A stretch of DNA of 64,000 nt, taken from UHGV virus genome UHGV-0180032; one strand, given 5' to 3'. Of the stretch, positions 39,001-42,000 are shown in pieces (the first letter of the stretch is position 1; the number at the start of each line of letters is the position of its first letter). Source of the DNA: a virus. Made by a program: the position numbers.

Positions 39001-42000
39001 TTATCAGCCAGACCACACAGACGCTGACCCTAAACCGGCAGCACCGAATTTCGATAAGGTGGATCAGGTCACGATTCTCCCTGACTCTACGGTTGACCAT
39101 GCGCACTTTGCCTACTATTGCGTTAACAATGTTCCACCGCTCTTTAATAAAGACGACGGTTATATTCTCACCTTCCGTATTGGGTTACGCGGTGGTGGAG
39201 AGTATGATGCGAAGGTCGGCGACTGTACGATCAAAGATTACCGATTAGATTCGTTAGCGTATTGTCCGGGTACGATACCGTTCTCCAACAACTATTCAGA
39301 AGGTTCAGAACAGTTAGGTGCCTGGCACGGGATGCCTTATCCGGGTTATCAGTATCCGTTTATGTACACTATCCACAAAGACGACCGGTATAAGCTGTGG
39401 TTAGATAACCAGATTCAGTTCATGTACGACTCGCAGTTGGCTTACCAACGGCAGCTCGGTGAATTAGGGCCTGGTTGTGCTGCGTATATTTGGAACCGTT
39501 GGGACAACTACACCTACGGAGAAGCGGATACCTGGACAACGTTCCATTGGAGCGACGACCATCCGTGGCCAGGGTACCAACCGCGCGCGTTTCATGCGGC
39601 GTGTCGGTGCTGGTACGAACTGAAACTGCGAGGTAAAGAGGTTCCTGAGGCGTTAACAAACTATATTGAAAACTGGGTGAATTGGCTAGGTGGGTTTGTG
39701 GATCGGTTTAACGGACACACCCCTAACGAGTTCCCTACAGCACCGAATAAACCCGTTTGGGTGGAAGATGACTTCAACGCACATATGTGTGCGTTGTGGT
39801 TAGCAGGGTGTTGTTGGGCGTTACTCGCCGGTGCAACGAATCCGAACTACGAAAAAGTGGTTAATGCGGCAATTAAGGAGTTAGGTGAAGGGTTTACGAT
39901 TACCTCAATTCCGAATAAGCCGATTAACGGGGCGTGGTCTCCAGCCGCTCGAGAGTCTTCCGATAACGGTATGGCTTTTGGGTTCTACAGTGGGGAAGCG
40001 TTCCGTGCGTTAGGTCTCTACGTTACTTACAAAACCTACGGGGCCAACGCTAATATTTATCGTGACTTAGCGATTAGTGACCACAGTCAAGCGGTCTTAG
40101 ACGTTACGTTAACGATAGAAGACGATGCATTAAAACCAGAGCAATAATAACCCGCTTATAAAATATTGGGGGGGGGGTAAGCTACTCCCCCCGATCTTTA
40201 GCTCCCGATAGAGAACTTAATATCATGGCAAAAGCGGTAAAGAAAATACGATTACATAATCTTAGACCATATACCGGTGATATCGGTGAAGGCGTTTTAC
40301 TTTTCTCCAAGGATGAGAAAGATTATAAGTTACCAGTCCGTGAGATCATTGCGGATATTGACACCGTACGTAATGCGGTGGCTGAAGCACAAACAGCAGC
40401 AACACAATCACAAGAAGCTGCAACGCAGGCTACACAAGCAAAGAATTTAGCAGAAACCGCAAAACAACAAACTGACACCGTTGCGGCGACGGTTGCTCAA
40501 CAAGCGCAAACTGTAACCGAAAAAGCAACTGAAGTCGGTACAAAACACACTGAAGTGTTAGCCGCGAAAACGGCGGTAGATACCCAGGTTGTGTCCGTTA
40601 ATGAGAAAGCGCAAGCGGTAGCGGCAAGTGAGGCCAACGTCACACTAGCAGAGACTGCCGTTACGAAGAAAGCAGAAGCCGTCGCCACACAAGCCGGTCA
40701 AGTCGAACAGTCGCTTACAGCAGTTAACGAAGCTGTCGCGTCGGTAGAGTCGTCAAAAGCCTCTGTAGAAGCTACAGCAACGCAAGTTACCACAGACAAA
40801 GAAACCGCAGAGAATGCGGCAACGCGTTCTGAGGCAGCCGCTAAGCGCGCAGAAGAAATCGCTGCAAAAGGTAACGTTGATGCATCAACGACCAGTAAAG
40901 GTATCGTTAAGCTTAATAATACCCTAAGCAGTGACTCTGTTACTGAAGCGGCTACGCCGTCAACGGTTAAGCAGTTAAATGAAGATTTGCAGTTAAAAGC
41001 AAACCGTCACAACCCAACATTTACTGGTACGGTAAAAGCACCAACTCCTGCTTCGGATTCTAACGACACGAGTGTCTCAACGACTGCATGGGTACGACAA
41101 GCGATTGCTGAATTAGTGGATTCTTCACCCGAGACGTTAGATACGTTATCAGAAATTGCAGCTGCGTTAGGGAACGATCCTAACTTTGCGACAACGATGA
41201 CGAACCAACTCGCGGGTAAGCAGCCGTTAAGTCCGTTACTGACAGCGATTGCCGCAGTCACCACCGCTGCAAACAAACTCCCTTACTTTACCGGTAGTAA
41301 TCAGGTAGGGTTAGCGGATTTCACCTCGACTGCGCGTGATTTGTTAGCGAAAGGGTCGACGACCGATATCATTAACTTCCTGGGTTTGAAAACCACCGTC
41401 GATAAAGCTGCGGGTGCTATGCAACGCAGTTCTAACGGTGCCGATATTCCCGACAAAGTCACCTTCGCGAAGAACATCGGGTTGTCAGCAGAGACGTACC
41501 TGAAGTACAACGGCGATATGGCGATAGACGCGGACCTTAATACCTTCGGTCCAGTCGAAGCGTCTATGGGTATTTGGTCGAAAGGCACATCTACAAACGC
41601 AACGATTGCAAAGAACTTCCCGGAAGAAAACGCAGTCGGTTATTTAGAGGTTTTTAGAGCAGGTAACTACGGCGGGAGTCAGCGTTTCACTGTACGTAAC
41701 GGTAACGTCTATACACGTCATCTTACTGCTTCATGGAATGGGACAAACGGCCCTTGGTCAGAATGGCGTAATGTTGCCGGTTCCGCCAGAACGTTGAACG
41801 AACAAAATAATCTGAATGACTTAGGCGGTGAACCCGCACTGGGTGTTTGGAGAAACAGTACAAGTACGTTAGCAACAGCTGCGCTGAATTATCCTGAGGA
41901 AGGTTCCTTTGCCCAGGGTGTATTAGAGGTCCTCAAAGGTGGTAACTACAGTTACACACAACGCTACACTACCCGTAGAGGTAATGTGTACGTTCGTTGT

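What the first reader, a model, noticed from the sequence alone, without database searches (positions are those of the whole stretch)
40165..40196. Homopolymeric G10 tract forming a G/C hairpin just upstream of the long tail-fibre gene
ATTGGGGGGGGGG-TAAGCTACT-CCCCCCGATC sits about 30 nt before the fibre ATG. A 10-G run is both a strong structure (pairs with the C6 run) and a classic slipped-strand-prone tract. Related elements precede two other genes (46304, 58101), so this looks like a deliberate regulatory element rather than chance.
Basis: seen in the sequence. Interest (0 to 1): 0.6.

Follow-up and report, generated by a model that had tools for sequence, protein, structure and literature searches.

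The report
G-run terminator-like hairpins, jumbo phage
The ten-G run is one arm of a conserved RNA hairpin just after a tail gene of an uncultured jumbo phage; it most likely acts as a weak transcription stop or attenuator, and the run's length drifts between relatives without looking like a genetic switch.

Summary
G10 lies at 40168-40177 and pairs with CTCCCCCC at 40185-40192. Two sister elements lie at 46304 (G10) and 58101 (G9). They are the only G runs of 7 or more in the 64 kb. All three are on the + strand and intergenic; runs of 9 G are expected 0.09 times by chance.

The window comes from an uncultured Erskinevirus/SPN3US-like nucleus-forming jumbo phage. Nine orthologues of the 40165 element all fold into a hairpin. 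All 68 stem positions are standard pairs, and two columns show GC-to-AU compensatory changes. Only three of the nine carry a long G run; the others read GGGGGAGG, GAGGGG or G6. Run length varies from 9 to 11 at all three sites.

Predicted stability is flat from 8-9 G upward, so length changes only resize the loop. The 40165 and 58101 elements have an A-tract, a GC hairpin and a short U-tract, placed 18 and 5 nt after a stop codon. Phage Asesino has a canonical terminator at the position equivalent to 40165.

Best reading: leaky intrinsic terminators or mRNA-end hairpins. The G run is a by-product of A-to-G transitions plus slippage. A phase-variable switch is not supported. This is an ordinary kind of element, with a modest evolutionary twist.

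The parts
40165..40196 (+). Element E1: hairpin ATT-G10-TAAGCTA-CTCCCCCC-GAT(C), between the tail-protein gene and the long tail-fibre gene
   Evidence: Sequence. Predicted fold about -20 kcal/mol. Hairpin kept in 9 orthologues with compensatory changes.
40168..40177 (+). G10 homopolymer, the 5' arm of E1. Eight Gs pair and two go into the loop.
40185..40195 (+). 3' arm of E1, CUCCCCCC plus GAU. The U forms a G.U wobble here and an A-U pair in relatives that have GGGGGAGG.
40158..40163 (+). Upstream A-tract (ATAAAA), complementary to the downstream U-tract
   Evidence: The outer AAAA/UUUU helix is predicted in 8 of 9 orthologues.
40196..40199 (+). Short U-tract (CTTT; TTTT in all eight other orthologues)
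   Evidence: TransTerm-style tail score -2.79.
37313..40147 (+). Upstream gene: tail protein, 944 aa, 76% identical to Asesino gp141
40225..44850 (+). Downstream gene: long tail fibre, 1541 aa, with a gp37-like distal part and a Peptidase_S74 domain
46304..46354 (+). Element E2: two-tier hairpin. The outer stem is 7 Gs of the G10 run (G10 at 46307-46316) paired with UCUCCCC (46344-46350). The inner A/U stem has a 7-nt loop. There is no U-tract. It ends 2 nt before the AGGAGG Shine-Dalgarno sequence (46357-46362) of gene 46372-46884.
   Evidence: Orthologues carry G10, G10, G9, G10, GAG7 and GGAG5, and the two-tier fold is kept.
58101..58134 (+). Element E3: AUC-G8 / CCUCCCCCGAU, an 11-bp stem with a GUGA loop (58101-58126), followed by AUUUCUCU. 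G9 lies at 58104-58112. It starts 5 nt after the stop codon of a truncated DUF7941 paralogue and lies 35 nt before gene 58161-58691.
   Evidence: -23.4 kcal/mol, z = -4.7. Top hit of the terminator-like scan. Orthologues carry G9, G10, G10, G11, or no element.
46372..46884 (+). DUF7941 virion structural protein gene that follows E2
58161..58691 (+). DUF7941-family gene that follows E3

Best explanation
E1 (40165) and E3 (58101) are leaky Rho-independent, terminator-type RNA hairpins at the 3' ends of late structural genes of a Chimalliviridae-type jumbo phage. E2 (46304) is a sister hairpin without a U-tract. As RNA polymerase passes the stop codon, the G-rich 5' arm pairs with the CUCCCC(CC) 3' arm. 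This forms a stem of about -20 to -23 kcal/mol, flanked by an upstream A-tract and a short downstream U-tract. The stem releases part of the transcripts and, on those it ends, protects the 3' end. The remaining transcripts read through into the fibre or DUF7941 gene. The homopolymer is not the functional unit. The 5' arm is all purine and the 3' arm all pyrimidine, so an A-to-G transition turns an A-U pair into a tolerated G.U pair. GGGGGAGG thereby becomes a pure G run, and the run then expands or contracts by slippage. Surplus Gs only enlarge the loop. Shown here: the sequence, its non-randomness, the conserved fold with compensatory changes, the strand bias, the length variation and the position relative to genes. 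Inferred: that it terminates or attenuates transcription, and with which polymerase.
For: 1. Position and layout. E1 starts 18 nt and E3 starts 5 nt after a same-strand stop codon. Both have A-tract, GC hairpin and U-tract, and the outer A/U helix is predicted in 8 of 9 E1 orthologues.
2. E3 is the top hit of the terminator-like scan for 50000-64000.
3. Asesino and a 246-kb Asesino-like contig carry a canonical terminator, ACCCACTCTTCGGAGTGGGT + ATTTCTTTTTT, at the position equivalent to E1.
4. In nine E1 orthologues all 68 stem positions are standard pairs. Two columns switch GC to AU on both sides and four columns switch GC to G.U.
5. G.U pairs and folding energies favour the + (mRNA) strand: -20.8, -23.5 and -23.4 kcal/mol against -16.7, -16.3 and -18.0.
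6. Stability plateaus at 8-9 Gs, and the observed runs are 9-11.
7. Other clear terminators in the same window have the same style, for example AGGGTGGGGG-TAAT-CCCCACCCT and AGGGGTGG-TAAA-CCACCCCT.
8. In phiKZ, the type member of the family, 61 mapped terminators share a C-tract/G-tract hairpin with only a short TTAT tail (PMC10914365).
9. No promoter-like AGATAKATATTAYC motif follows E1-E3, unlike several strong terminators. This fits intra-operon attenuators.
Against: The U-tracts are weak. Tail scores are -2.79 (E1) and -3.02 (E3), against -3.4 to -5.9 for most canonical terminators in the window. 21.5% of random windows reach -2.5 and 9.5% reach -3.0. The terminator-like scan did not flag E1. 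E2 has no U-tract (-1.86) and abuts a Shine-Dalgarno sequence, so it cannot be a classical terminator. The distance to the downstream start codon (about 20-35 nt) is more constant than the distance to the upstream stop codon (5-86 nt). E3 is absent from one 93%-identical relative. No transcript data exist for this phage.
Confidence: 0.55

Rival explanations
1. The elements are mRNA stability or processing hairpins that do not terminate transcription. They would act as intercistronic stem-loops that block 3'-5' exonucleases, or as 5'-UTR hairpins of the downstream gene, possibly cut by RNase III in the case of the long two-tier E2. The effect would be to set the relative amounts of tail protein, fibre and DUF7941 mRNA.
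For: The U-tracts are weak or absent. E2 is a 17-bp two-tier stem with no U-tract, ending 2 nt before the Shine-Dalgarno sequence. A further strong hairpin without a U-tract lies between the fibre and gp38 genes at 44855-44877. All three elements sit about 20-35 nt before a start codon. No promoter motif follows them, so the downstream genes must be read from the same transcript.
Against: E1 and E3 have the A-tract/U-tract symmetry typical of terminators. E3 passes the terminator scan. A canonical terminator occupies the E1 site in Asesino. The two roles do not exclude each other.
Confidence: 0.2
2. One reading: the G tract is a contingency (phase-variable) switch. Slippage would change the G count and thereby switch or tune fibre expression.
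For: Run length differs between close relatives at all three sites: E1 10/10/9, E2 10/10/9/10, E3 9/10/10/11. The elements cluster in the receptor-binding region. A relative also has a G tract at the start of an adhesin gene, with G5, G8 or G9 in different genomes.
Against: The tract is not conserved as a tract: 6 of 9 E1 orthologues and 2 of 6 E2 orthologues are interrupted or short. It lies outside reading frames, and no sigma-70-like promoter was found spanning it. Late genes of this phage family are also transcribed by phage polymerases. Predicted hairpin energy is flat for 8-14 Gs, so at most a graded loop-size effect is expected. Differences in length between assemblies could also be homopolymer miscalls.
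Confidence: 0.07
3. The elements are recombination linkers at module boundaries, as PeSLs are in T4-like phages. The short conserved hairpins would serve as crossover points for swapping receptor-binding cassettes.
For: Identity to relatives jumps exactly at the elements. At E2 it rises from about 50% to 97% at 46317 against contig 078609. At E3 it rises from 55-65% to 86-96% at 58101 against contigs 113438 and 3300029126_000001. E1 and E2 bracket the fibre plus two-adhesin cassette, which Asesino lacks. E3 follows a rearranged paralogue. PeSLs are described in PMC2839356 and PMC4122927.
Against: Mosaic joints at gene boundaries are common in phages without any special sequence. No identity jump occurs at E1 in the pair tested. 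There are only three copies per genome. No promoter is attached. No relative was found with an empty site carrying a single hairpin.
Confidence: 0.1
4. The shared sequence (AAUC-Gn-URA ... CUCCCC-RAU) is an operator for a phage RNA-binding protein that represses translation of the following structural gene.
For: The three elements share sequence beyond what a generic stem needs. Two of them precede DUF7941 paralogues. E2 abuts the Shine-Dalgarno sequence.
Against: Loops and stem sequences vary freely between orthologues (GCTT, TAAAGCA, CATTCTA). The distance to the Shine-Dalgarno sequence is not constant. No candidate binding protein is known.
Confidence: 0.04

Closest known systems
Rho-independent (intrinsic) transcription terminators
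   Same: A GC-rich stem-loop on the coding strand a few nucleotides after a stop codon, with an upstream A-tract and a downstream U-rich stretch (E1, E3). A canonical terminator sits at the orthologous site in Asesino.
   Different: The U-tracts are short (CUUU, AUUUCUCU) and score near the random background. E2 has none. The 5' arm is a pure G homopolymer that is longer than the 3' arm.
Conserved phiKZ terminator motif BCCYCCCCHWWDGGGRRGGBYTTATKYYGT (61 mapped sites; Putzeys et al. 2024, PMC10914365)
   Same: Same virus family (Chimalliviridae). The stem is built from a C-tract and a G-tract with one interruption, the loop is AT-rich, and the tail is only a short T-rich stretch.
   Different: The arm order is reversed: G-tract first here, C-tract first in phiKZ. 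The tail is not TTAT. There are three copies per genome rather than dozens. No mapping data exist for this phage.
Hypermutable polyG tracts of Campylobacter Fletchervirus phages and bacterial contingency loci (Sorensen et al. 2021, Cell Rep 35:109214, cited in PMC10877375)
   Same: G runs of 9-11 near receptor-binding genes whose length differs between related genomes.
   Different: Those tracts lie inside reading frames and switch proteins on and off. These are intergenic, sit inside a hairpin arm, are not conserved as tracts, and are predicted to tolerate length change.
PeSL promoter/stem-loop cassettes of T4-like phages (PMC2839356, PMC4122927)
   Same: Short repeated intergenic stem-loops found at the joints of mosaic, host-range-related segments.
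   Different: No promoter part was found. There are only three copies, and the evidence for recombination at them is circumstantial.
Intercistronic stabiliser hairpins (REP-type stem-loops in E. coli operons; from general knowledge)
   Same: Stable stem-loops between co-transcribed genes, without a U-tract (E2, and the hairpin at 44855-44877).
   Different: There is no sequence relation to REP elements, and the function was not tested here.

Membership tests
Intrinsic (Rho-independent) terminator | Stable GC-rich stem-loop (about 5-14 bp, loop 3-10 nt) in the transcript | tested here: met
   E1: 11 bp with a 9-nt loop, -20.4 kcal/mol. E3: 11 bp with a GUGA loop, -23.4 kcal/mol. E2: 7 + 10 bp in two tiers, -23 kcal/mol.
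Intrinsic (Rho-independent) terminator | U-rich tract immediately 3' of the stem | tested here: inconclusive
   Tail scores are -2.79 for E1, -3.02 for E3 and -1.86 for E2. Canonical terminators in the window mostly score -3.4 to -5.9, and the random mean is -2.13. E3 passes the scan. E1 and E2 do not.
Intrinsic (Rho-independent) terminator | Located downstream of a stop codon on the same strand, outside coding sequence | tested here: met
   The elements start 18, 86 and 5 nt after the stop codons at 40147, 46218 and 58096.
Intrinsic (Rho-independent) terminator | Transcript 3' ends map to the U-tract | not testable with these tools
   No RNA data exist for this uncultured phage.
phiKZ-type conserved terminator motif | Match to BCCYCCCCHWWDGGGRRGGBYTTATKYYGT | tested here: not met
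   The arms are in the opposite order (G-run, loop, CCUCCCCC) and the tail is CUUUAG or AUUUCU, not TTAT. The two resemble each other in composition and logic only.
Contingency locus / phase-variable homopolymer | Homopolymer long enough to slip (8 or more) | tested here: met
   G10, G10 and G9.
Contingency locus / phase-variable homopolymer | Tract lies in a reading frame or in a promoter spacer, so that length sets expression | tested here: not met
   All three are intergenic. No promoter-like hexamer pair spans them. Hairpin energy is flat for 8-14 Gs.
Contingency locus / phase-variable homopolymer | Tract maintained as a tract across relatives, with length polymorphism | tested here: inconclusive
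   Length varies from 9 to 11 where the run exists. The run is interrupted or short in 6 of 9 E1 and 2 of 6 E2 orthologues. Variation within a population could not be tested because no reads were available.
PeSL-like recombination cassette | Composite of a promoter and a stem-loop | tested here: not met
   The phage's promoter-like motif AGATAKATATTAYC is absent near E1-E3.
PeSL-like recombination cassette | Sits at joints between conserved and swapped segments | tested here: met
   Identity jumps sharply at E2 and E3, though not at E1.
Rfam RNA families | Score at or above a family's gathering threshold | tested here: not met
   No match in the whole window. Only sub-threshold noise appears around E1.

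The most novel reading that the evidence does not exclude
The receptor-binding region of this jumbo-phage lineage may concentrate hypermutable G tracts. These are the three intergenic hairpins, plus a G tract right after the ATG of the second gp38-type adhesin gene, which reads G5 here, G8 in one relative and an out-of-frame G9 in another. Under this reading, slippage would tune read-through into the fibre genes and switch an alternative adhesin on or off. The conserved hairpins would double as crossover points for exchanging receptor-binding cassettes. Together this would amount to a contingency system for host range in a nucleus-forming coliphage.
Probability: 0.1. Interest if true: 0.6.

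Novelty: new member of a known kind. Interest (0 to 1): 0.25.

Why it matters
For annotation, the result marks transcript boundaries or attenuators in the tail-fibre region of an uncultured relative of SPN3US and Asesino. It also shows that a conspicuous homopolymer can be a neutral by-product of a purine-arm/pyrimidine-arm hairpin rather than a switch. That is a useful caution when scanning phage genomes for phase-variable tracts. The hairpins coincide with mosaic joints of the host-range cassette, and a relative carries a frame-breaking G tract in an adhesin gene. These two points are the only ones that could lead to something new.

Tried and rejected
- Sequencing or assembly artefact: rejected. 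The same elements occur at the same sites in independent contigs from other metagenomes (3300029126, 3300018473, ERZ808044, JACXXQ, SKEP).
- Sigma-70 promoter with a G-tract spacer: no qualifying hexamer pair was found.
- Known RNA family: no Rfam match.
- Further family members in the window: a search for a purine run followed by a pyrimidine run found none. The source contig of 151.6 kb holds only these three matches to G9-TRA...CTCCCC.
- Closely related cultured phage: none. The best nucleotide identity is about 69%, to Asesino. Homologues of the gene after E3 are 38% identical or less. In those cultured relatives the gene follows a divergent intergenic region, with no upstream tandem paralogue.
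- Search of bacterial genome contigs for the invariant E3 arm: 39 chance matches and no orthologue.
- AATC-G9-TGA in contigs L006, L008 and L009: unrelated contexts, namely a primase-helicase gene and GC-rich DNA.
- MAFFT plus RNAalifold on E2: the diverged 3' arm was misaligned, so the alignment reported no compensatory pairs. Folding the sequences one by one shows that the two-tier fold is kept.
- Intramolecular G-quadruplex: considered and dismissed on general grounds. A single run cannot compete with a hairpin of -20 kcal/mol.

Full report
**1. The observation**

The preceding gene stops at 40147 and the 1541-aa gene starts at 40225. The two related elements also exist:
- AATC-G10-TGA...TCTCCCC-AATC at 46304-46354.
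- ATC-G9-TGA-CCTCCCCCGAT at 58101-58126.

G runs of seven or more occur only at these three places in the 64 kb. All three are on the + strand and between genes, and the + strand has no C run of that length. Nine consecutive Gs are expected 0.09 +/- 0.32 times and were found at three loci; none of 100 shuffles reached that count.

**2. What the window is**

- The tail protein upstream (37313-40147) is 76% identical to gp141 of Erwinia phage Asesino. That phage belongs to Erskinevirus, now placed in Chimalliviridae, the nucleus-forming jumbo phages.
- The window also carries a phiKZ-type major head protein, a polymerase and a DnaB-like helicase.
- No cultured phage is close at the nucleotide level.
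- The window is part of IMG/VR contig 3300045988_095954 (151.6 kb). Relatives of 220-228 kb exist in several metagenomes.
- Gene 40225-44850 is a long tail fibre with a gp37-like distal part. It is followed by two gp38-type adhesin genes.
- The genes after the second and third elements (46372, 58161) are paralogues of the DUF7941 virion-protein family, as is 36151.

**3. Structure**

On the + strand the G run pairs with CUCCCC(CC), not just with the C run. One G.U wobble forms, and the AUY/GAU flanks extend the stem.
- E3 is AUCGGGGGGGG / CCUCCCCCGAU with a GUGA loop, -23.4 kcal/mol, z = -4.7.
- E2 is a two-tier hairpin, -23.5 kcal/mol.
- E1 is about -20 kcal/mol.
- The complementary strand folds 4-7 kcal/mol less well, because each G.U pair becomes a C.A mismatch there.

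**4. Orthologues**

Protein-anchored and pattern searches recovered the same three sites in related contigs.

*E1.* Nine orthologues are available. The 5' arm reads G10, G10, G9, GGGGGAGG (three times), GGGGGAG, GAGGGG and G6. The 3' arms are CTCCCCCC, CCTCCCC, CCTCCCCC, CTCCCCC, TTCCTC and CTCTCC.
- All nine fold into a hairpin at the same place, from -9 to -22 kcal/mol. Eight of them also show an outer helix between an upstream A-tract and the downstream UUUU.
- When the arms are lined up from the stem base, all 68 positions are standard pairs. Two columns change on both sides (GC to AU) and four change between GC and G.U. No A ever faces a C.

*E2.* The runs are G10, G10, G9, G10, GAG7 and GGAG5. 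The most diverged copy keeps the two-tier fold with a different outer stem, AGGGGGU/ACCCCCU.

*E3.* The runs are G9, G10, G10 and G11 over an invariant 3' arm. One 93%-identical relative lacks the element altogether.

The hairpin is therefore what is conserved. The long homopolymer is a derived state found in some genomes. The simplest history is that A-to-G transitions in an all-purine arm turn A-U pairs into G.U pairs, which are tolerated. The resulting pure G run then changes length by slippage.

**5. Does length matter?**

I folded each element with 4 to 14 Gs. Stability rises up to 8-9 Gs and is then flat: E1 -21.9 to -22.1 kcal/mol, E2 -23.0 to -24.1, E3 -22.6 to -23.6. Extra Gs simply enter the loop. 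The observed lengths of 9-11 sit on this plateau. The tracts lie outside reading frames, and no promoter-like hexamer pair spans them. An on/off switch driven by tract length is not supported. A small graded effect through loop size cannot be excluded.

**6. What it most likely does**

Evidence for a terminator-type role:
- E1 and E3 start 18 and 5 nt after stop codons and have the A-tract, GC hairpin and U-tract layout of intrinsic terminators.
- E3 is the best terminator-like hit in 50000-64000.
- At the position equivalent to E1, Asesino and an Asesino-like contig have a textbook terminator.
- The window holds about sixteen clear terminators, several in the same style, such as AGGGTGGGGG-TAAT-CCCCACCCT and AGGGGTGG-TAAA-CCACCCCT.
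- In phiKZ, 61 experimentally mapped terminators share a C-tract/G-tract hairpin followed only by TTAT (PMC10914365). Short U-tracts are therefore normal for this virus family.

Evidence against a strong terminator:
- TransTerm-style tail scores are weak: E1 -2.79 and E3 -3.02, against -3.4 to -5.9 for most canonical sites and a random mean of -2.13.
- Unlike several strong terminators, E1-E3 are not followed by the promoter-like motif AGATAKATATTAYC. The downstream genes must therefore be reached by read-through.

I conclude that E1 and E3 are leaky terminators or attenuators that also cap the upstream mRNA. E2 has no U-tract and ends 2 nt before a Shine-Dalgarno sequence, so it is more likely a stability or processing hairpin. 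A similar hairpin without a tail lies between the fibre and gp38 genes at 44855-44877.

**7. A secondary lead**

Sliding-window identity to relatives jumps exactly at two of the elements:
- At E2 it rises from about 50% to 97% at 46317.
- At E3 it rises from 55-65% to 86-96% at 58101.

E1 and E2 bracket the fibre-adhesin cassette, which Asesino lacks. This recalls the PeSL stem-loops at mosaic joints in T4-like phages (PMC2839356, PMC4122927). However, no promoter is attached, there are only three copies, and joints at gene boundaries are common in phages in any case.

**8. Comparison with known families, and novelty**

No Rfam family matches. The elements behave like intrinsic terminators and resemble the phiKZ terminator motif in composition, but they do not match that motif: the arm order is reversed and the tail differs. 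They fail two defining features of contingency loci, namely location and conservation of the tract. I file them as new members of a known kind. Interest is low to moderate.

**9. Caveats**

- All function is inferred, because no transcript data exist.
- Differences in G-run length between assemblies could partly be homopolymer miscalls. For example, G10 in 3300029126_000001 and G9 in JACXXQ010000002.1 sit in otherwise identical context.
- The sample of relatives is small.

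Noticed in passing
window 45706-45712; L010 (minus strand), L098 about 895-905; L111 8286-8296; L109; L099: The second gp38-type adhesin gene begins with ATG followed directly by a G run. The run is G5 here and in ERZ808044. It is G8 in contig 078609, which stays in frame and adds one Gly. It is G9 in SKEP01000003.1, which puts the Gp38_N domain out of frame with the ATG. There is no run in contig 113438. This could be a real phase-variable adhesin in relatives, or a homopolymer miscall.
   Followed up: partly
window 4910, 25829, 47032, 50335 (+); Asesino L001 about 6585-6600: A conserved motif AGATA(G/T)ATATTA(C/T)C lies 15-30 nt after strong terminators and before genes. 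It gives 7 matches with up to 2 mismatches against 1.0 expected. It is probably a phage-polymerase promoter and resembles, from memory, the ATATTAC-type early promoters of phiKZ.
   Followed up: partly
window 40225-46218: The host-range cassette consists of a 1541-aa fibre with a T-even gp37-like tip and a Peptidase_S74 domain, plus two tandem gp38-type adhesins. Parts are 78-86% identical at DNA level to T-even-like coliphages and to Yersinia phages vB_YpM_5, vB_YpM_6 and vB_YpM_39. The cassette is absent from Asesino. This is a mosaic import into a nucleus-forming jumbo phage.
   Followed up: partly
window 57733-58096: The DUF7941 paralogue upstream of E3 has an internal deletion of about 190 nt relative to three relatives. 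This leaves a short frame-shifted 5' piece and a 78-aa 3' ORF. It is probably a decaying duplicate.
   Followed up: partly
window 46317 and 58101: Nucleotide identity to related contigs changes abruptly at E2 (about 50% to 97%) and at E3 (about 60% to 95%). These are mosaic joints located at the hairpins.
   Followed up: partly
window 44855-44877: A strong hairpin, CAGTGAGGGG-GAA-CCCCTCACTG, lies between the fibre stop codon and the gp38 start. It has no U-tract (tail score -1.78). It is also present in relative L111.
   Followed up: no
L006 13076-13091 and L008 9344-9359 (minus strand): Unrelated contigs from the same metagenome carry AATC-G9-TGACTCTCC 2 nt after a stop codon and about 10 nt before a 1054-aa primase-helicase gene. 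Many other IMG/VR contigs have G9-11/TAA/CTCCCC hairpins followed by T runs. G-run terminator arms are therefore not rare in phages.
   Followed up: no
window 40202-40210: A second CTCCCGATA box lies 10 nt after E1 and is invariant in all nine orthologues. It can pair with the outer part of the G run in an alternative fold. Its role is unknown.
   Followed up: no
window 59940-61274 (-): A radical SAM domain protein gene lies among the structural genes.
   Followed up: no
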